Shown here piece after piece: positions 52,130 through 64,000 of a stretch of DNA of 64,000 bases. The position numbers were made by a program, and so were the translations under genes. The DNA comes from Azolla caroliniana. Taxonomy: Eukaryota > Plantae > Polypodiophyta. The notes under the pieces were generated by a model. It was not told where the DNA came from. It saw only the letters and a program-made list of their open reading frames with translations, and made no database searches. The stretch covers positions 23,684,001-23,748,000 of the forward strand of contig JBHGNT010000004.1 of the NCBI GenBank assembly GCA_043228905.1. Direction: 5' to 3'. The first letter of the stretch is position 1. Each line of letters opens with the position of its first letter.

Positions 52130-52304
52130 TTGAATTAGAGGTGTCATAAAAATAAATTGGCATCGCGATATTTGTTGGACGATAGTAACTATGTATTCTG
52201 AATCATCAATAATCTTGACGGAAGGCGGTAGCAAAATGTCACTAGCGGTTACTTTCTTGCCAGGACCAATTACAAACAAAAAAGCTTTTTGCGCTTCATT
52301 GGAC
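52130..52304 (-). pseudogene. rpoA: Plastid rpoA fragment
   Basis: [36 protein letters not shown] matches the RNA polymerase alpha GP..VTA.DI.LPP.V motif. Confidence 0.78.
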
Positions 52305-55300
52305 CCGGAAATCAATTATTCAGTCTACGACAAGGAGCTTACAACTATCATCTCTGCCTTCGCCGAATGGCAACCCTATCTCGTTGGGCCCCAACATTGT
52401 ATCCAAGTGTTGACCGACCACAAGAACCTCATCTACTTCACCACTAGTCGTACATTGAATTGGAGGCAAGCTCGTTGGTCATCTTTTCTCGCCGATTACG
52501 ACTTCAAAATCTTGTTTCGACCAGACATTCAACATGGGAAAGTGGATGCCCTCTCTCATAGACCAAATTTTGCGCTACGCCTAGGTAACAACGCATATTC
52601 TCAGCAATCACATTGTTTGTTGCAGCCCGATCAACTCCAGATGTTCGCAACCTACATGTTACATGATGATTCCTTGCTCAACGAAATCGCCTAGGCCACC
52701 ACATCAGACCTATTCGCTACCAACATCTTGGCATGCATCAACGACCCATCCCAGGGAATGCAAAGCTTGGATCTCAATCTGATTTTGTAATCTGATTCAC
52801 TTACAACTTAGGATGGGCTACTATATTGTAATCACCTCCATTACGTACCAATTGGAGCATGTCGCACTCGAGTCCTACAAAATTGTCACGATGATCCTCT
52901 TGTCGGCCACTTTGGAGTCGCGAAAACACTAGAGTTGCTATCTTGGGGGTTTTGGTGTCCCGAACCTTGGAAGTTTGTCAAAAAATTTATTAAGACGTGT
53001 GACATTTGTGCCCGCTCCAAAGCGGCTCACCATCGTCCATACAGCCTTCTCCACCCGCTTCCACTTCCCAATTGACCCTGGGCCTCTCTCTCGATGGACT
53101 TTATAAACGACCTCCCTTGTTAGTGGCCATGACACGGTGCTAGTGATTGTCGATCAGTTTTTGAAGATGATTCATGCTCAAAAACCATTTCGGGCGAGGA
53201 GACGGCGAACCTTTTTCTAAAAAATGTTTTTCATCTACAAGGCTTACCTAAGGATGTCACATCTAATCGAGGTCCTCAATTTATCTCCCATTTATGGTGA
53301 CAACTTATGCAGACATTCGGGACTTCTGTGAAATTGTCAACAACGTACCACCCTCAAACTGAAAGAGTCAACCAAATCCGCGAACAATACCCCTGGTGTA
53401 CAATCATCTACCAACAAGAGTATTGGGTGGACTTCCTTGCCATGATGGAATTTGCCTACAATAATAATATCCATGCCTCAATTAAGGTTTACCCATTCTT
53501 TGCAAACTATGGGTTCCACCCTCGTTTTAGCATTTCCATTCTTGTGATTTCCGTCGATCCGTAGACAAAGATGTGTGCCCACACTTTACAAGATGTCCAT
53601 CGTGACCTCTCCCTTGACCTCTGTGTCGTTGGCAAATAGTATAAGGATCACGCTAACCGTTATCGCTTGGTCGTGCCGACCTTTGCAGTCGGTGACATGG
53701 TTCTGCTGCTACGTCGCCACCACTCGTCCTTGCATGAAGCTAGACTACAAAAAGCTAGGCACCTTCCGTATCATCGAGCGAATCAACCCAATCGCATTCC
53801 GATTAACACTTCCTCCAACGTTCAGGATTCACAATGTTTTCCACGTCTCTCTCTTTGAACTATGCCATCCTTCTCGAATTACAAGACGACAACCTCCTCC
53901 ACCGCCACCCATGGAATTATCGTCAAGGGAGGAGTACGAGTTGTAGATCCTCGACTCCCCCTTGCATCAACGACATCTTCAACATTTGGTTGTATGGAAA
54001 GGTTACCCCATTTCGGACGGCACGTGGGAACTAATTACACATTTGCAAAATGCTCCCGAGCCCATTCGAGCTTTTCATCAACTATACCCACAGTAAAAAC
54101 CGGCTACAAATATTTGGAGGCGGCTCGGCCTTAGGGGGAGGATAATGTCATAGACATATGCCACGCCATGGTGAAAGGTAGGGATTGAACCTAAGACCTC
54201 CCGCTCTCCATTAGGCAACCCTACCAACTAATATATATCCAACCATGCATCTTTATATAAAATCCAACTTCATGTATGGTAGATTGAACATTGGAAGTTC
54301 CTACCTTGCATGCATTCTCTATTTCTAGCTAGCATACATACCTCTACCTTCTTATATAAATACTCAGGTGCACCTTGATTCCAATAAAGGTGAACAACAC
54401 CAATTATGGAATCATAAGTTAAGTTATTGTTCTTTTTCTCTCTCCTAGTTCTTAGTCTCGTCTTGGTTCTACTCTATCATACTCGTTCATGGTAGGAGGT
54501 GAGTAGGAAATAGCCATCGTGGGGACTAGTAGTTCCACCTCGAGCCATTTCCTCATTGCGTCACCATCGGCGTGTTCCCCCATTTCTACCAAAAGTGGAA
54601 GTCGGTAGTAACCACATTGTCGGAGTGGTTGCAAATCTCATCCAACTGCCCTCGTAGGTTGTTACTGATCGTCGCAAACCAAATACCCATGATCAATTCC
54701 TCAGAGGGGCATACCAGCCTATCTTAAATTGGTCTTGACGAGTTTATCTCTTGTGCATTCATAGCACCAACTACCTACATTGAAGGTGTTCGTCCAACTA
54801 TCAGTCGAGGGATTGATCCAGGCCGTTGTGCTCCACGATGTTGTCCCTTCCACTTTGTAGACAACTAGGGGGCGAGTCACCTTGTGCCATACCCCTTGAG
54901 CTTAAGGGCAATCCCAAAAATAGTGTCTTAGAGTCTCGATAGGTTCAAAACAGAGTGGGCAAGTTAATGGGCCTCCTCGTTTACCTAGCCATTCGCCAAC
55001 AAGGACCACGTTATGGCCGATCTGCCACCAAAATAGCTTGATCTTCTCAGGCGCGTGGAGATGCCAGAGACCCTTCCAGAAGGTACCGACCACCTCGTCA
55101 AGGATACCCAATGTTTGCCAACCATTGCGTAGGGGACCTTCCCGTTGCATTTGTATAGCTCAACCCAATTTAGTGTTGTAATAAAAGAAGTAGCATAATC
55201 TGCCACGGTCTTGTTTCCACCTGAAATCCCTTGGGTTCCATTCTAATTCTGCAATGGGGCAATTATCGTTGACCCACAACTTCCAGTGGGGTTCCACCTT

Positions 55301-56471
55301 AGCAATGTCAGGGTGCATCTTCCAGTTATATCCATCTTGCGCCACCACGCGGATCAGGTGCCAAGTACCACTACTCTAGCTCTCCCCAAATAATGTAGCC
55401 CCTCCAAACCCATTCATGCCCTTCAGTAGATTAATCGTTCTATCCTCATCAAAGAGACCGAACCATGTATCTCCTCTCGCATCCACTACCTGATCCCTAT
55501 CAACCGCCTCTGTTATCAATCTCCTCATTTTCTTAACTCCCTTGAGGGGAGAGACTAGGTCCTCCCTCGCCCCTCCAGGAGCCACCGCCTGTCTCCAATC
55601 ACCAATAGAATGGAGCTTTGTCTGGGCGAACTTTTCCCACCCCAGGCCCTTGAGTTTCCCTATCATCATGTTGTCACTTGTTCGCACTCGTGGATTCCAA
55701 AATAATGGTTGTCTAGTATATTCGATTAATGCCTCCGGGGTGTGCTTGACCAAATGTTGTCGCATGTGACACCATGCCTGCAAGATGGAGTTCGTTACCC
55801 TGTCCTTTGGGTGACATGCCATCTTGGGTGGGACTCCATTCGTGCAACACCAGTTCAAAGAGTCATGCCAAGGCCTACCATGCTTGGGAGTTCCTGCTTG
55901 CAACCTATTAGGAAGGAATACCTTCCAGCACTCCTTACCTAGCAAGAGGCACTGAACCACCATTTTTGTGAGCCATGCTTGGCTCTAAATTAAGGGGTCT
56001 ATGAGGCCAAGTTCCCCTTTGGCCCGCGGTTGCGTTAACTAGTTCCATGACACTCTGGCGGCCACTGTTGTTTGTCCTTACCTGACCATATAAACCCCTT
56101 GATGGCGGCCTTAATCACATGCATACTTGGAGAGGAAATTTGTCACGTAAGAAGAATGATTTGAACCCATGACTTTGGATTAATAATTCAACAACTTATG
56201 AACAAGCTAAGTACTTGAAATGAGAAAACATCAATTATGGAGGCTCACTAGAGTTTTGAAAAGACAATCGATGTTATCTAGGCAATGTGTCTTGGTAGTT
56301 ATCTTAGAATTGAAGTGTCCTTAGCATCACAAGTGCTCAAATACTTTCTCGAGGATTTTTTTCACAATTTATTTACTCAAGTTAAATCCAATAGAGTTTA
56401 TGGCAAAATGTATACACAATATTAATAATAATAACTAATGAGAAATTGTCTGTCAATGACTCATCAGCATC

Positions 56472-56836
56472 CATAGTTCCTAATATTCGCGTACATCCAA
56501 TTTACTGGACGTACGCGAACGTTTGCAAACGTACGTGTATGATACGCGATATTCATTTGGGTTTTTTTTTTGGGGGGGGGGGGTTTAATTTTTTATATTC
56601 ATAATTCTTTGTGAATAGAAATGACTTCTGACACACGCACTCTCTCTCTCTCTCACGAGAACTAACAGATCTTCTCTCTCTACAAAATCTAGATATCTAA
56701 TATACATATTACACACTCCCTCACACAAACAAAACCCATAACTCCTCTCTCTCTCTCTCTCTCTAGAGTCTAGATATACACTCAACCATTGTCTCCTCAC
56801 ACATGCAAAATAGGGCTTCTCTCTCTAGACCACACA

Positions 56837-56883
<47 letters not shown>

Positions 56884-57303
56884 GCACACGCACGCATGCA
56901 CGCACAATGTAAACCATATGTATATATCTATGTACCGCGTACATAGTTCCTAATATTCGCATACGTCCAATTTACTGGACGTACACGAACGTTTGCAAAC
57001 GTATGTGTATGATACACGATATTCATTTGGGTTTTTTTTTGGGGGGGGGGTTTAATTTTTTATATTCATAATTCTTTGTGAATAGAAGTGACTTCTGATA
57101 CACGCACTCTCTCTCTCTCTCACGAGAACTAACAGATCTTCTCTCTCTACAAAATCTAGATATCTAATATACATATTACACACTCCCTCACACAGACAAA
57201 ACCCATAACTCCTCTCTCTCTCTCTCTCTCTAGAGTCTAGATATACACTCAACCATTGTCTCCTCACACATGCAAAACAAGGCTTCTCTCTCTAGACCAC
57301 ACA

Positions 57304-57347
<44 letters not shown>

Positions 57348-57909
57348 ATGTAAACCATATGTATATATCTATGTACCGCGTACATAGTTCCTAATATTCG
57401 CGTACGTCCAATTTACTGGACGTACGCGAACGTTTGCAAACGTACGCGTATGATACACGATATTCTTTTGGCTTTTTTTGTGGGGGGTTTTTTAATTTTT
57501 TATATTCATAATTCTTTGTGAATAGAAGTGACGTCTGACACACACACACGAGAACTGACAGATCTTCTCTCTCTACAAAATCTAGATATCGAATATACAT
57601 ATTACACACTCCCTCACACAAACAAAACCCATAGCTCCTCTCTCTCTCTCTCTAGAGTCTAGATATACACTTAACCATTGTCTCTCACACATGCAAAACA
57701 GGGCTTCTCTCTCTAGACCACACACGCTCTCTCTCTCTCTCTCACACACACACACAAGTCACACACACACACACATTATGTAAACCATATGTATATATCT
57801 ATGTACCGCGTATGGATTTCAATCATACTTGGAGCCTTTTCACGTATGAGTATGATACGAATATTGGCGTTTGAGTATGACACGAATGGGACGTATGGCT
57901 AGAACTATG
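56472..57909. mobile_element. Non-autonomous hAT-type element with a triplicated left end
   Basis: Termini CATAGTTC...GAACTATG, 8-bp TSD TCAGCATC (56464-56471 and 57910-57917), three tandem units of about 440-470 bp each starting CATAGTTCCTAATATTCGC. Confidence 0.88.
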
Positions 57910-57917
57910 TCAGCATC

Positions 57918-60805
57918 TGACAAACTTCTAGCTAAATTAACAAGAGCTTCTATTCTCCTACATGAGATTGTCCAGACCAGAAGCAAGGATGCTCAAGAGA
58001 AGCTACAGAGGACAAAACGGGGACTAACAGCCTTACAACGACTCCAGCAGAGATACACGTCATGTATTTGGATCGTAGGACAAGTCGCCACGACCAAACA
58101 TGAACTTAGCATGGAGTTTCATGGAAGCATAGCGCGATGGATTCGAGTAGGGAACAAAACCACGAAGGAATTATTCCGCTCCAAAGGCCCGAGGCACGCT
58201 AGAACTGTGATGCGCAGCCTCAACCAAGAGGATGGAACGACCACTGAGGATGGCGACGAAATGAGGAATATTGCCGTAAGTTATTATAACCACCTACTTA
58301 CCGAAGACATTATAGCTACAGGGGAAGACATAAGAGAAGATATTATCCTCCAAAGCATACCTGAGAAAGTCACGCCAGAAATGAATACATGGCTCGTGTG
58401 TCCCCTATCAATCATCGAGATATGGGAGGCCCTCACTGATTTAGATGCCTATAGTTGCCCCGAAATCAACGGCCTCACCCTGCACTTTTTCACATGCCTT
58501 TGGGACACTATTAAAGAAGACCTCCTCCAGGCATATGAGGAAATCCTCACCTCTGGAAGGATGCCGGAGGAATTTGGACAGGGGATGATACATCTCATTC
58601 CTAAAAGTGGTGGGAATGCCAACGACATTAGCAAGTGGCGGCCCATAACTCTTCTCAATACTGTCTATAAGTTGCTCGCAAAAATCGTGGCACGCCGTTT
58701 AACACCACTTCTCCCTCAACTCATTCATCCGTCCCAGACAGGTTTCGTTAGAAATCGAAGCATCCTAGACAACCTCTTCTCATTCTGGGAAGCCATAGCC
58801 CTTGCCAAGCGTACCAACAACAAGGTAGCGGTGGTGCTACTAGATTTTGAGAAAGCATATGATAGGGTATGATGGAACTTTCTAGAAAGTGTGATGGGGA
58901 AACTCGGCTTTCAAGAGACATGGATCAAAGACATTGCAGGACTTTATAGGAATGGCAGCAGTTGCGTTTCACTGAATATCCTGATCTGTACGACAGGGAT
59001 GCCCACTAGCTCCATCCTTATTTCTATTATACGCCGAAGCACTCTCTTGCTTTCTCAACTCGCGGCATCTCAACCTACGTGGTCTTCCCGTACCTCATTC
59101 TCACCAAAGCATCCTGGATATAGAATTTGCAGATGACACAACGGTCTACTTGCAAGGGTACTTGGAAAACCTCCAAAAGCTAGAAAGTGGGCTAGTTGTA
59201 TTTTGCAAGAGATCCAATGCCATCATCAATTGGCACAAATCCTGCGCAATATGGCTCTCTCATGAAACACATCCGGCGTGGCACCCACATCCCACTTTCA
59301 AAAGGATCAATCAAGGAGCAAGCACCAAATATTTGGGTTTCTAAATTGGTTTCAACATACCGCCAGAGACTATGATTGCACCTGTTATCCATTCCATTTG
59401 ACAAAAATTGATACATTGGAGCTCGAAAAAACTGTCGCTAGCGGGTCGCATTATAGTGGCCAATCAGGTACTACTCACAACAATATGGTACAGTCTATCA
59501 TGGTGGACAATCTCCAAGGAAAGTATACATCAGATTCAACAACTAGTCTGCAACTACATTTGGTTTGGTAAGGAAGACCATGTAGCTCGCGCCAAGGTGG
59601 CATGGCCTATACTCACAGCGCCTAAGTCGAGAGGGGGATTGGGTCTTATTGATCCCCTTTCACAATCGAAAGCCTTACTTGCCAAATTTGTGGTGCAAGG
59701 ACTCCAACCAGGAAATGATTGTTGGAAAATGCTATTGAGGTTACGTTTTGCTTACTTTAGGCCACGAAAAGGGGTCAATTTGACCCCCCAAATGGGATGG
59801 ATTCTAAACATGGATATCAAACCTAGTTTCTCTCGCCAATTGGAGGGTAGATTCAATGCATCCATGTGGAAGGCATGGTGTGACATTCATCGAGGGCTCA
59901 AGTGTGATCAACCGAGATCCGAACCTGCCTAGCTCAGTCAATGTATCCAGTATGAAACCCATGTATCAAGGATGAATCTAATCAACTACCGGTATCACAT
60001 ATAGGGTTGTCATGGGGATACATCGTAGAGGTCCATGAAAGTATAGAATGTCGGCAACGGTTTATGTCACTACCACTACAAGATCAAGCGAACATACTCC
60101 ATGGAATCAGGGGCGGATGGACTATGAGATCGGAAATCATTAACGATCTACTGATTAGGGAATCTGCTACTCAAAGGACGACAATGGAGAAATGGATTGG
60201 CCACGAGGAGGGGGGATCTCTGATCCCGAGAGGTAGGGGACCACCAGACAGACTCGAAGGCTCTGAATTGCGAGACACTAAGACACCAACACATAATAAC
60301 ACAATTTGAGTACTTGCGTATACTGGTCATAAATACAATGTTGATCCTGATCCCATCAAAGTACAACCCGATTGGCAAATATGTACTCATGAAAACACAT
60401 GGCTATGTAAGGTCAGTTGGGACCCTTTGCAATGGACATGGCTACGTAAGGTCAATTGTGACGACACACTCTGTGGGGACTGCCCGACGTCCCATCGAAT
60501 ATGGCGGGGGGTTGGCCGCTTGTTGCAATTATGCCAGGTGCAAGGCTCAATCAAGTGGGGAAATATATGTTGGCTATCATGGCAGACTGCAATTGGCAGA
60601 TACGAGCATCAGGAGGAGGGGATGACTTTGGTGATAAAAGCACAAGAGGTCTTTTTCTCCTCCAGCGGCAATGTCCACTCCACTCCTCTTAATGATAAAT
60701 CTCAAGAGGTGTTGGAATTGGTCAACCCAATAACTCTTTGGATTCTATGGAAACAACGATGTAGGCGAGTCTTCTCCAACCAAACCACACATCCAACAAG
60801 GTTAC
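57918..60805 (+). mobile_element. L1-like LINE ORF2, degenerate
   Basis: LIPK...WRPITLLNTVYKLLAK...SQTGFV..RSILDN...LDFEKAYDRV, LSLAGRIIVANQVL, GGLGL, ITLWILWKQRC; cut at 60805 by a Copia LTR. Confidence 0.92.
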
Positions 60806-63800
60806 TGTCGAATACAAGTGTATAATGGACGTATTCACACTATCCTTTTGTATAGCTCAAGTTTGGGCCATTTGTGTAATTAGCATAAATAGTAGTTGCC
60901 CTAAGTGTGTCACTATATAAAGTGACCTTGTAACCTTTATGTAGGGTTGGGTTGTATTATTGCTTTATGGAATAGAAAGAGTCGTTTTGTGCCTCCTCTC
61001 TCTCTCTCTCTCTATCTCTGTGCAACGACCTTGAAACTGTCATACGCAGGTACTCACCCCAATCGAATGTTGCTTGATCTTCCGCATCGACACGGCCTTG
61101 TCTACAACATCTGGTATCAGAGCGATGCGGAAGATCAAGCAGCATTCGATTGGGGTGAGTACCTGCGTATGACAGTTTCAAGGTCGTTGCACAGAGATAG
61201 AGAGAGAGAGAGAGAGGAGGCACAAAACGACTCTTTCTATTCCATAAAGCAATAATACAACCCAACCCTACATAAAGGTTACAAGGTCACTTTATATAGT
61301 GACACACTTAGGGCAACTACTATTTATGCTAATTACACAAATGGCCCAAACTTGAGCTATACAAAAGGATAGTGTGAATACGTCCATTATACACTTGTAT
61401 TCGACACTCCCCCGTAATGGGCGTATACATGGGTTATCTAAGATTACAGGCATGAACCTAGGTTCTCGGACATATCAGTTTTGTTCGAGTCGGCAGGGTC
61501 CGAAGGCAGAAGACCGAACTGGTCGGGTCGGAAGAGTTGAAGCCGATCATTAAGGAACTGATGTCGGTTGTCGGAGACCATCCTGCGCTGTGTCTGGCTC
61601 TAACCGGACTGGTTTGTCGTTACGCCCATTTGATGCCGAAGGGACCGAAAGCGGTCTGCCGAAAGACACTTGGTCATTCCATCTGCGACATTGTCGGTTG
61701 TGGATATTTTCTCTAAACCGATTTTCCCTGAAATGACGCAGTCCCGAACGAAGTGATATCGAACGTCGATATGTTTGGAGGCGTTGTGGTGAACCGGATT
61801 TTTCGACAAGGCAACAACACCTTCACTGTCGCTATAGACAACTGGGGCCGAGTCATGGTCGACTTGTCGAAACGTGTGCGCCAGCCGGCCGAGCCACAAA
61901 GCTTCTTTTGCAGCGTCGGACGCAGCTACATATTCTGCTTCGGTCGTTGAGGTCGCTGTGCACTCCTGAAGTTTCGACTTCCACGAAATTGCTCCATTGC
62001 CGAATTTGAAGCAGTATCCAGTTGTTGATTTCCGACTGTCTATACAGCCGGCGAAGTCCGAGTCGGTGTAACCGACTACGCCTGTAGTTGAGTTCGGACC
62101 GAAAAGAATGCCGTGATCTTTTGTGCCAGCCAGATATTTGAACACATGCTTGACTGCGTTCCAATGCGATCGGCCAGGATTGTGCATAAATCTGCTAACG
62201 ACTCCTACGGCATGAGAAATATCAGGCCGTGTCGCGACCATCAGGTACATAAGGGAGCCGACTGCCGGTGCATACGGTACCGACTTCATATCTTCCCCCT
62301 CCGGACCGGATGTCGGGCAGTCTCGCTGAGAGAGCCGAAGATTCATGGGGAGCGGGGTTGAAGCAGATTTGGCTGATTGCATGTTGAAGCGTTCCAAGAC
62401 ACGTCCGATATAGTCGGTCTGAGACAAGAAAAGATGTCGTTTATCGCGATGCCGACTAATCTTCATGCCAAGGATGTGTCGTGCCGGACCGAGGTCCTTC
62501 ATGGCAAACTTCAACCGCAGTTGCCGAATGAGATCGGCAAGTTCGCCCGCGTGGCGTCCAGAAATTAGCATGTCGTCCACGTAAATGATGAGGAAGATGG
62601 GTGATCCATCTTGAGCTGTGTTGGTAAAAAGACAATGGTCCTCATCGCTTTTTGAGAAGCCGATCGATTGGATGAAGTCGTCGAACTTCTTGTACCATTG
62701 TCGCGGTGCCTGTTTGAGGCCGTATAGACTCTTCCTGAGTCGGCAGACTAGATGTTCTTGGCCAGTTGCCACGAAGCCTTTTGGCTGCTCCATATAAATT
62801 TCCTCTTCAAGATCACCATGGAGGAATGCTGTTTTGACATCTAGCTGAATCAGCTCCAAGTTGTCGGCTGCCACTACGCCAAGTAGAAAACGAAGGGTTG
62901 TCATTTTCACCACTGGTGAAAAAATCTCGTCGAAGTCGACGCCATATTCTTGTCGGAAGCCCTTCGCAACTAATCTGGCCTTGTACTTTGGGGTGGTCGA
63001 ATCAGACGTCTCTTTTAGTCGATAAACCCACTTGCAAGGAAGAGCACGTCGGTTCCTAGGTAATTCGACCAGATCCCAAGTCTTGTTTGCCCGAATGGAG
63101 TGCATTTCCGACTCCATCGCCAGATGCCAGGTGGCGGAATCGACAGATGTCGATGCTTCTTCGTAAGACGTCGGTTCGCCGGCGTCGATGAAGAAAATTC
63201 CAGGAGAATACCTCTCCGGAGGTTGCGACAGTCTCTCGGATCGTCGAGGTATGATTGGACTGGTCGCATCGGGTATCAGAGCCTGCATAGTATTCGGTCC
63301 TTCAATCCGCTGTCGGCCGTCGTCTCAGCCTGCACAGCATTCGGTTTCCTGCGTCATTCGAAGAAGAGAGAAGAAGAAGAAAAACGAGGCTTGCACCTCA
63401 TCGCGTTAGATCATCTTCGCTTGGAGTAAGCCAGCAGGTTGTACTCTGTTCCTTGTGATCGTAACCGCTCGAGGTGAAATCCCCTTGTGCAACATTGACA
63501 CGATCGTGCTCCACTCGGTTAAACGACATCCGAAGAGGTCATCAAACGCTGCTCGCCGCTCATTGTAACCACTCGGTGCAGATCGGTCTCAAGACAACAA
63601 CCCCAATTCGTGCTTCATCCGGCTGATCGACATTCGGGAGGATCAGTTGGATCCGTCTCTCTCGTCGCTGCAGTCACCCGAAGCATAATCGGTCCAGACA
63701 ATCGGTTTCAATAATCGGTATTTGGCATATATATTCGGAAGCGAACCGGGCTCACTCCAACTCGGCAACATTCGGGAAGACCAGTCGGTTCTGTCCCTCA

Positions 63801-64000
63801 GGTTACCGGAGTCAATTCGAGCAAGTTCAACAATACATATATCCGAAGCCGAACCGACTCGGGTTCAAATCCGACTAGAACGATATCGGGTGAGCCAACC
63901 GGCTGCACTCCAACAAGGTTCGTAGTCAACTCCGAACCGAGCTTCGTCAACCGAAACCAAATTTGATGACATCAACATCCGGCTCGTCAGAAATGAGTCT
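60806..64000 (+). mobile_element. Ty1/Copia element: 5' LTR, PBS and leader, carrying an inverted copy of its own 3' region
   Basis: LTR 60806-61109 (TG...CA), tRNA-iMet PBS TGGTATCAGAGC 61112-61123, inverted LTR copy 61123-61406 with an adjacent PPT, second GGTATCAGAGC at 63272-63282. Confidence 0.88.
61600..63288 (-). CDS. Copia reverse transcriptase + RNase H, uninterrupted ORF
   Basis: KARLVAKGF, QLDVKTAFLHG, LYGLKQAPRQW, YVDDML, YTDSDFAG, STTEAEY, KHIDVRYHF, ADGMTK. The first five or so codons come from the antisense PBS junction. Confidence 0.95.
   Translation of the reverse strand: MQALIPDATSPIIPRRSERLSQPPERYSPGIFFIDAGEPTSYEEASTSVDSATWHLAMESEMHSIRANKTWDLVELPRNRRALPCKWVYRLKETSDSTTPKYKARLVAKGFRQEYGVDFDEIFSPVVKMTTLRFLLGVVAADNLELIQLDVKTAFLHGDLEEEIYMEQPKGFVATGQEHLVCRLRKSLYGLKQAPRQWYKKFDDFIQSIGFSKSDEDHCLFTNTAQDGSPIFLIIYVDDMLISGRHAGELADLIRQLRLKFAMKDLGPARHILGMKISRHRDKRHLFLSQTDYIGRVLERFNMQSAKSASTPLPMNLRLSQRDCPTSGPEGEDMKSVPYAPAVGSLMYLMVATRPDISHAVGVVSRFMHNPGRSHWNAVKHVFKYLAGTKDHGILFGPNSTTGVVGYTDSDFAGCIDSRKSTTGYCFKFGNGAISWKSKLQECTATSTTEAEYVAASDAAKEALWLGRLAHTFRQVDHDSAPVVYSDSEGVVALSKNPVHHNASKHIDVRYHFVRDCVISGKIGLEKISTTDNVADGMTKCLSADRFRSLRHQMGVTTNQSG

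What the first reader, a model, noticed from the sequence alone, without database searches (positions are those of the whole stretch)
60806..63282. Copia element with its own RT-RNaseH-PPT-3'LTR inserted backwards at a duplicated PBS
Seen: forward LTR (60806-61109) and PBS; then a 2.15-kb inverted segment (61123-63271) made of the LTR minus its last 20 bp or so, PPT and RT-RNase H; then the PBS again (GGTATCAGAGC, 63272-63282) followed by what looks like forward leader. The inverted segment is bounded by CGATGC...GCATCG. Known: plus-strand strong-stop cDNA ends exactly at LTR+PBS. Inference: a double template switch or hairpin join during reverse transcription at the second strand transfer, then integration into a LINE. 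It predicts a normal forward gag-pol, a 3' LTR and TSD GTTAC beyond the window.
Basis: partly seen in the sequence, partly recalled or inferred. Interest (0 to 1): 0.72.

Follow-up and report, generated by a model that had tools for sequence, protein, structure and literature searches.

The report
Copia insertion with inverted own tail
A plant jumping gene was inserted once, with normal ends, but carries a backwards 2.1-kb copy of its own tail exactly at its tRNA primer site, likely because its reverse transcriptase doubled back and then recovered; it is a single copy in this genome.

Summary
Beyond the window come leader, gag-pol, a 3' LTR, the TSD GTTAC and the rest of the LINE: one 11.8-kb Copia insertion with three LTRs, the middle one inverted and 20 bp short. 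The gag-pol is not normal: four tandem integrase units and a nested solo LTR. The inverted piece came from this element's own lineage (7 shared rare states; 10 private differences in 1865 bp, 8 methylation-type), which argues against misassembly and nesting. Both junctions sit on native signals. The left follows PBS base 11-12, at the modified tRNA-iMet G64. The right is the best anti-PBS mimic among 162 extendable sites. The piece ends at its only 7-bp self-complement (1 of 2144). Best reading: a double copy-back at the second strand transfer (about 0.65); host repair after insertion about 0.25. Both junctions are unique here (1 against 236 normal PBS-leader sites). Reads could not test them: no run laid showed this insertion. 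The scan has noted related copy-back insertions before, in this and other genomes. This one differs in regaining normal ends.

The parts
57856..60800 (+). Host LINE (broken ORF2, RVT_1), 5' part; it resumes after the insertion, beyond the window
   Evidence: loose ends of other LINE copies read on into the downstream sequence
60801..60805 (+). Left target-site duplication GTTAC (right copy lies beyond the window at G000:C4:23756626-23756630)
60806..61109 (+). 5' LTR, 304 bp, TG...CA (3' LTR, 308 bp, lies beyond the window at G000:C4:23756318-23756625)
61112..61123 (+). First PBS, 12 nt complementary to tRNA-iMet bases 76-65; the last C is shared with the inverted piece (left junction, 1-nt overlap)
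61123..61406 (-). Inverted LTR, positions 1-284; starts with CGATGCG on the + strand
61407..61413 (-). Inverted polypurine tract GGGGGAG
61600..63271 (-). Inverted IN-RT linker end, RT and RNase H region, open frame; ends with CGCATCG on the + strand. Its forward source lies beyond the window (L007:453-2605), preceded by the native mimic CTCGATACC (L007:444-452)
63272..63283 (+). Second PBS lacking its first T; GGTATC (63272-63277) is shared with the native internal mimic (right junction)
63284..64000 (+). Forward leader and start of gag; beyond the window follow gag, protease, four tandem 1164-bp integrase units (L006:5020 to L007:310) with a 630-bp nested insert (L006:7428-8057), RT and the 3' LTR

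Best explanation
This is one Copia insertion with normal ends and a 5-bp TSD whose inverted RT-RNaseH-PPT-LTR piece was likely made by two template switches of reverse transcriptase at the second strand transfer, before integration. Shown: the structure, the single TSD, the origin of the piece in this element's own lineage, and the native signals at both junctions. Inferred steps: (1) plus-strand strong-stop DNA stopped after copying 11-12 tRNA-iMet bases; (2) instead of annealing to the minus strand it folded back onto LTR position 284 (33-nt loop, 1-nt overlap) and made minus-sense LTR; (3) that end moved by LTR homology to a co-packaged RNA and ran through PPT, RNase H and RT; (4) at the internal site CGCATCG-GGTATC the new end matched both the start of the inverted piece (7 bp) and the anti-PBS end of the finished minus strand (6 bp, 9 of 10 with a bulge), was captured there and went on as a normal plus strand; (5) integrase inserted the molecule into a LINE. 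A mirror route (anti-PBS end self-primes at the mimic, then jumps to the strong-stop end) gives the same sequence and cannot be told apart. The product is likely a dead end.
For: One TSD and intact U3/U5 ends. Left junction after PBS base 11 or 12, although the element's PBS pairs for 13; base 13 faces tRNA position 64, which carries a 2'-O-phosphoribosyl group in plants and fungi (PMC11301382, passage; that it stops RT is recalled from Ty1 work I could not read). Right junction is the lowest-energy extendable anti-PBS duplex, 1 of 162 sites with 3 or more 3' matches among 9320 positions; the mimic's GATACC core is in 124 of 129 copies aligned. Far end is the only 7-bp self-complement among 2144 possible ends. 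Inverted and forward copies share 7 states carried by 0-7 of 115 relatives, differ at 10 sites each seen in at most 2 of 115, and the nearest relative is 17 differences away. Their divergence (10/1865) does not differ from that of the outer LTRs (1/304; Fisher p = 1.0), which fits one birth date. A second TSD-flanked fold-back product in the family (L045, TSD CATCC, internal CA as its end) suggests that inverted cDNAs are integrated.
Against: The left junction has a 1-nt overlap, while LTR-type RT clamping usually needs two or more (PMC8363836, passages). In Ty1/Ty3 the tRNA-extended strong-stop is a dead end (PMC5371799, passages). The same element was rearranged after insertion (tandem units share derived states), so host recombination acts here. 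The clock test is weak (LTR interval 0.01-1.8%). The bipartite duplex is not unique by energy (fourth among windows). L085 has a PBS micro-inversion with flanking deletions that looks like end-joining repair. The R/U5 boundary is unknown.
Confidence: 0.65

Rival explanations
1. Host repair soon after insertion: a staggered break across the PBS was repaired by snap-back priming on the 5' LTR, a switch to the 3' LTR by homology, copying of 2.1 kb, and rejoining at GGTATC; or the element's own cDNA was captured at the PBS by homology-driven repair.
For: 1-nt fold-back and short overlaps are typical of polymerase-mediated end joining (own knowledge). The element has a stepwise tandem array. L085 shows a repair-like inversion at the PBS. 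Integrase-independent cDNA insertion at PBS-like homology is described for Tf1 (PMC12786077, passage).
Against: The break must cover exactly the 11-12 PBS bases of an 11.8-kb element. No own-copy inversion at another internal site was seen in the 100 listed PBS-leader hits inspected; the one candidate, at C5, joins at the 5' LTR and lies beside a scaffold gap. The inverted LTR lacks the 5' LTR's private change 18 nt from the fold-back point and the 3' LTR's 4-bp longer microsatellite, so the event was early.
Confidence: 0.25
2. Assembly artefact from fold-back or chimeric reads in a young repeat family.
For: No read support obtained. The assembly has scaffold gaps inside copies of this family, and one inverted structure (C5) is 100% identical over 3818 bp, next to a gap and without a TSD.
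Against: Here the two copies differ at 10 sites, 8 of them C>T or G>A in CG or CHG context. There is no gap, the TSD and LINE are colinear, and two junctions fall on specific native motifs.
Confidence: 0.05
3. A second family member inserted in reverse at the PBS and was then trimmed by deletions, or an autointegration product was captured.
For: Reverse nested insertions occur in this genome (L084 at a PBS; L182 with TSD GGACC). Inversion circles from autointegration are described in Arabidopsis particles (PMC7197481, passages).
Against: Neither end of the piece is an LTR terminus, the duplication is 11 bp and not 5, and the piece shares 7 rare states with the forward copy, of which no single relative listed has more than 2.
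Confidence: 0.03

Closest known systems
Template-switch 'complex' three-LTR elements of Triticeae, rice and maize (Sabot and Schulman 2007, PMC1950507; abstract and Results section read)
   Same: Three LTRs, one flanking TSD, near-identical outer LTRs, origin ascribed to abnormal template switching in reverse transcription.
   Different: Those have an internal LTR between two complete internal regions and are ascribed to a switch between R regions. Here the middle LTR is inverted and truncated, the extra part is 2.1 kb, and the PBS is duplicated.
Autointegration inversion circles of Copia (SISYPHUS; PMC7197481, passages) and Ty1
   Same: An inverted portion of the element's own sequence formed at the cDNA stage.
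   Different: Those join at LTR termini, are circular and are not integrated. Here neither junction is an LTR end.
Self-primed (fold-back) strong-stop DNA of HIV-1 (PMC6088434, passages); fold-back priming suggested for Tto1 (PMC3061985, passage)
   Same: A strong-stop end primes on itself.
   Different: Described for minus-strand strong-stop DNA in vitro and as a dead end. Here the plus strand is implied and the product was completed and integrated.
Retroviral second-strand-transfer error products with deletions or insertions at the PBS (Pulsinelli and Temin 1991; recalled, not held)
   Same: Junctions anchored at the PBS or strong-stop end.
   Different: Recalled as deletions with short inserts in vectors, not a 2-kb inverted own-tail duplication with full recovery.
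Mu killer of maize (recalled, not read)
   Same: Inverted duplication of transposon sequence behind a promoter, able in principle to give hairpin RNA.
   Different: A DNA-transposon derivative with shown silencing; here no RNA or silencing evidence.

Membership tests
Ty1/Copia LTR retrotransposon | Direct LTRs with TG...CA ends and a 5-bp TSD | tested here: met
Ty1/Copia LTR retrotransposon | PBS complementary to tRNA-iMet; PPT before the 3' LTR | tested here: met
   13-nt match to the genome's tRNA-Met(CAT) gene end plus CCA; PPT GGGGGAG
Ty1/Copia LTR retrotransposon | Order gag, protease, integrase, RT | tested here: met
   Retrotran_gag_2, Pol_BBD, gag_pre-integrs, rve, then RVT_2
Ty1/Copia LTR retrotransposon | RNase H domain after RT | tested here: inconclusive
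   No Pfam RNase H hit; named from position and recalled motifs only
Template-switch complex elements (Sabot and Schulman) | Internal LTR, flanking TSD, near-identical outer LTRs | tested here: met
   1 mismatch and one 4-bp indel between outer LTRs
Template-switch complex elements (Sabot and Schulman) | Two complete internal regions with the internal LTR in direct orientation | tested here: not met
Autointegration inversion product | Junctions at processed LTR termini | tested here: not met
   junctions at LTR 284 and inside pol
Nested reverse insertion | Intact LTR ends and its own 5-bp TSD; donor distinct from host copy | tested here: not met
   contrast L084 and L182
Two-headed or two-tailed copy-back insertion | Same LTR end at both termini | tested here: not met
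   U3 at left, U5 at right
Hairpin silencer locus (Mu-killer-like) | Inverted duplication downstream of a promoter-bearing sequence | tested here: met
   284-bp arms with 33-nt spacer, 2.1-kb antisense pol behind the 5' LTR; promoter activity itself not tested
Hairpin silencer locus (Mu-killer-like) | Hairpin transcript, small RNAs and silencing in trans | not testable with these tools
   no RNA run holding more than 0.15 of the words was found

The most novel reading that the evidence does not exclude
The locus is a base-level fossil showing that plant Copia plus-strand strong-stop DNA ends at the ribosyl-phosphate base 64 of tRNA-iMet and, unlike in Ty1, can enter integrated DNA. A built-in bipartite mimic of the LTR-end/PBS inside pol lets a fold-back be rescued into a normal-ended insertion, giving Copia families a route to make their own hairpin/antisense silencing loci in one replication cycle.
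Probability: 0.25. Interest if true: 0.65.

Novelty: new variant of a known kind. Interest (0 to 1): 0.42.

Why it matters
Second-strand transfer in plant LTR retrotransposons is inferred mostly from retroviruses and yeast, and these two disagree on whether the tRNA-copied PBS is passed on. An integrated accident with both switch points readable gives a testable prediction for plant Copia cDNA ends. It also shows that an inverted internal LTR under one TSD need not be a nested insertion, which matters for annotation and dating. If transcribed, the locus would yield hairpin and antisense RNA against a family with many young copies. As it stands it is one copy in one genome with no shown function.

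Tried and rejected
Reads: one run search gave no holder above 0.42 of the words. (4 runs, 92% likeness) was swamped by repeat copies. One search (4 runs, 100%) listed no piece bridging the LINE-LTR junction or the left junction and showed no depth over copy-specific LTR sequence (60891-60946) in 4 of 4 runs. These runs probably lack the insertion, and contigs drop rare variants, so this neither supports nor refutes. C5 inverted element: first taken as a second case, set aside because it spans a 100-N gap, is 100% identical and has no TSD. pattern was not specific to this subfamily (590 hits); in the 30 loci read the sequence after PBS base 12 varied, but the pattern excluded C there, so it is only weak support for a 12-nt PBS. 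(1158 hits) was uninformative. A central PPT at the internal breakpoint was considered; the upstream sequence is not purine-rich. Folding of the LTR end gave only weak structures (about -5 kcal/mol). Inversion between the 7-bp repeats from a direct precursor was rejected because it leaves the anti-PBS match unexplained. The poly(A) site was not mapped. Literature: ten searches. Those for a precedent gave 0 papers (33, 66, 67) or listings without an evident match (32, 70, 81; mostly listings only). Six look-ups were not held and one recalled id was a different paper, so older virology papers may hold a precedent.

Full report
Observation. The window is G000:C4:23684001-23748000 of a 523-Mb assembly, a plant by its tRNA-iMet PBS and CG/CHG decay pattern (inference).

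Beyond the window. The next 16 kb (L006 and L007), mapped on one natural copy used as a ruler, hold gag, protease, integrase, RT and a 3' LTR ending at G000:C4:23756625, followed by GTTAC, the same five bases that precede the 5' LTR. The LINE resumes there, and other LINE copies in public runs read straight across this point. Pfam gives the Copia order. The forward part is not intact: a 1164-bp unit is present four times, its junction occurs only at these 3 places in the genome, unit 3 holds a 630-bp TG...CA insert with its own TSD, and units 2 and 3 end in a stop. Units 1-3 share one derived base and units 2-3 another, so the array likely grew in steps after insertion.

Source and age of the inverted piece. 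Against 115 relatives covering the 1865 non-LTR bases, inverted and forward copies share 7 rare states (in 0 to 7 relatives each) and differ at 10 sites, 2 private to the inverted and 8 to the forward copy; the closest relative is 17 differences from the inverted copy (one search gave the same picture with 27). Eight of the 10 are C>T or G>A in CG or CHG context, read from the printed contexts. The three LTRs differ by one substitution private to the 5' LTR and a 4-bp longer microsatellite in the 3' LTR. Divergence of 10/1865 and 1/304 are compatible, and 44 of 71 surveyed copies have 0 or 1 LTR mismatch. So the piece is a copy of this element's own lineage made at or soon after insertion. The only 100% matches to the LTR among 40 scored hits are the three at this locus.

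Junctions. Right: the forward copy reads CTCGATACC before the breakpoint, a mimic of the anti-PBS CTCTGATACC with 6 exact 3' bases and 9 of 10 with a bulge. It is the most stable extendable duplex for the minus-strand end, first of 162 candidates among 9320 positions in this element and first of 90 in a normal copy. Left: the join follows PBS base 11 or 12 with one shared C. The genome's tRNA-Met(CAT) gene pairs with the PBS for 13 bases; base 13 faces position 64, which is phosphoribosylated in plant and fungal initiator tRNA (PMC11301382, passage). That this stops reverse transcriptase is recalled from Ty1 work that was not held. Together the internal site is an inverted mimic of LTR 278-284 plus the PBS with 23 bases looped out, though by energy this duplex ranks only fourth. 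The LTR half is intact in 20 of 86 copies checked.

Frequency. The right junction pattern occurs once against 236 normal PBS-leader sites. PBS followed within 30 bases by an inverted LTR end occurs 3 times: this locus, an ordinary reverse nested insertion of another family (L084) and a 22-base inversion of the PBS itself (L085). I inspected the 100 listed of the 236 sites (86, 14; about 0.6 kb upstream and 6.4 kb downstream). Four of 98 loci were flagged for opposite-strand family sequence: three are TSD-bearing nestings and one, at C5, is an own-copy inversion across a scaffold gap without a TSD, which I do not count. L045 is a 355-bp insertion of an LTR cut at the equivalent of position 282, a 19-base repeat and 66 inverted bases from beside the PPT, ending in CA between CATCC repeats; it suggests integrase accepts fold-back cDNA in this family.

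Mechanism. Shown: one integration, own-lineage template, early date, signals at both junctions. Inferred: strong-stop DNA folded back at LTR 284, moved to a second RNA, copied 2.1 kb, and was captured at the mimic by the anti-PBS end, helped by the 7-bp pairing that brings the new end next to the first PBS. The mirror route from the minus-strand end yields the same sequence. Against: a 1-nt overlap is less than LTR-type clamping usually needs (PMC8363836, passages), and Ty1/Ty3 do not pass on the tRNA-copied PBS (PMC5371799, passages). Host repair soon after insertion explains the short overlaps and fits the later tandem array, but needs a break exactly over the PBS. I give 0.65 to reverse transcription, 0.25 to host repair, 0.05 to misassembly, 0.03 to nesting.

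Reads. No run found holds more than 0.42 of the words. At 100% likeness none of 4 runs showed a listed piece bridging the LINE-LTR junction, or depth over copy-specific LTR sequence, so the junctions stay untested by reads.

Known systems and novelty. It is a Copia member by ends, TSD, PBS, PPT and domain order. It works like the template-switch complex elements of Sabot and Schulman (PMC1950507, abstract and Results read) but fails their test of an internal LTR between two full internal regions. It is not an autointegration product (PMC7197481, passages). Searches showed no description of this exact form; older virology papers were not held, and no supplements were opened. After forming my reading I looked at earlier scan notes: unchecked reports of copy-back insertions with two like ends exist in this genome and in others, so such accidents recur; this case differs in switching twice and regaining normal ends. 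Verdict: real, a new variant of a known kind, single copy, no shown function; interest 0.42.

Noticed in passing
L045:6825-7179 (G000:C20:about 1429.8-1430.2 kb): 355-bp TSD-flanked (CATCC) mini-insertion: truncated LTR, 19-base internal repeat, 66 inverted bases from beside the PPT ending in CA; likely an integrated fold-back cDNA.
   Followed up: partly
L085/L088 (G000:C10:18001618-18001652): The last 5 LTR bases, spacer, PBS and the first leader bases (22 nt in all) are inverted in place with short deletions on both sides.
   Followed up: partly
L143, L199 (G000:C5:about 1386.7-1396.4 kb): Inverted 3.8-kb own copy joined to LTR position about 24-27 by GTA overlap; two U5 ends, 100% identity, no TSD, scaffold gap inside. 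May be an artefact or two joined copies.
   Followed up: partly
L026:6564-8034 (G000:C10:13342.6-13344.0 kb): TSD-bearing copy (CGGCC) whose 5' LTR end is joined straight to the RT-RNase H region, deleting PBS to most of RT.
   Followed up: partly
L190:1087-1420 (G000:C19:2599 kb): 5' LTR plus spacer is followed by a jump back to about LTR position 161, a partial LTR duplication just before the PBS.
   Followed up: no
L031:2838-9104 (G000:C892): Three further tandem 1984-bp units in which the LTR end is joined to RT; on a 14-kb contig, so possibly unresolved assembly.
   Followed up: no
L096-L097 (G000:C10:10728-10742 kb): Two 99.4% identical full copies facing each other 2.25 kb apart, each with its own TSD: possibly local hopping.
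   Followed up: partly
L095:1155-2777 (G000:C3:6704.6-6706.3 kb): 472-bp direct duplication of LTR and leader (99.8%) around a 635-bp piece resembling another element's LTR.
   Followed up: no
L006:5020 to L007:310 (just beyond the window, inside this element): Four in-frame 1164-bp tandem units of the integrase region with a 1-nt junction overlap, unique to this locus, with a nested solo-LTR-like insert (L006:7428-8057, TSD CATTG).
   Followed up: partly
window 56374-57812: Three to four tandem units of about 440-470 bp with CT/CA microsatellites and short palindromes, just upstream of the LINE fragment.
   Followed up: no
window 52134-54134: Broken Gypsy-type pol remnant (RT_RNaseH hit); a further LINE-like frame lies on the minus strand at 54902-55984 (no Pfam hit for the frame tested).
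   Followed up: no
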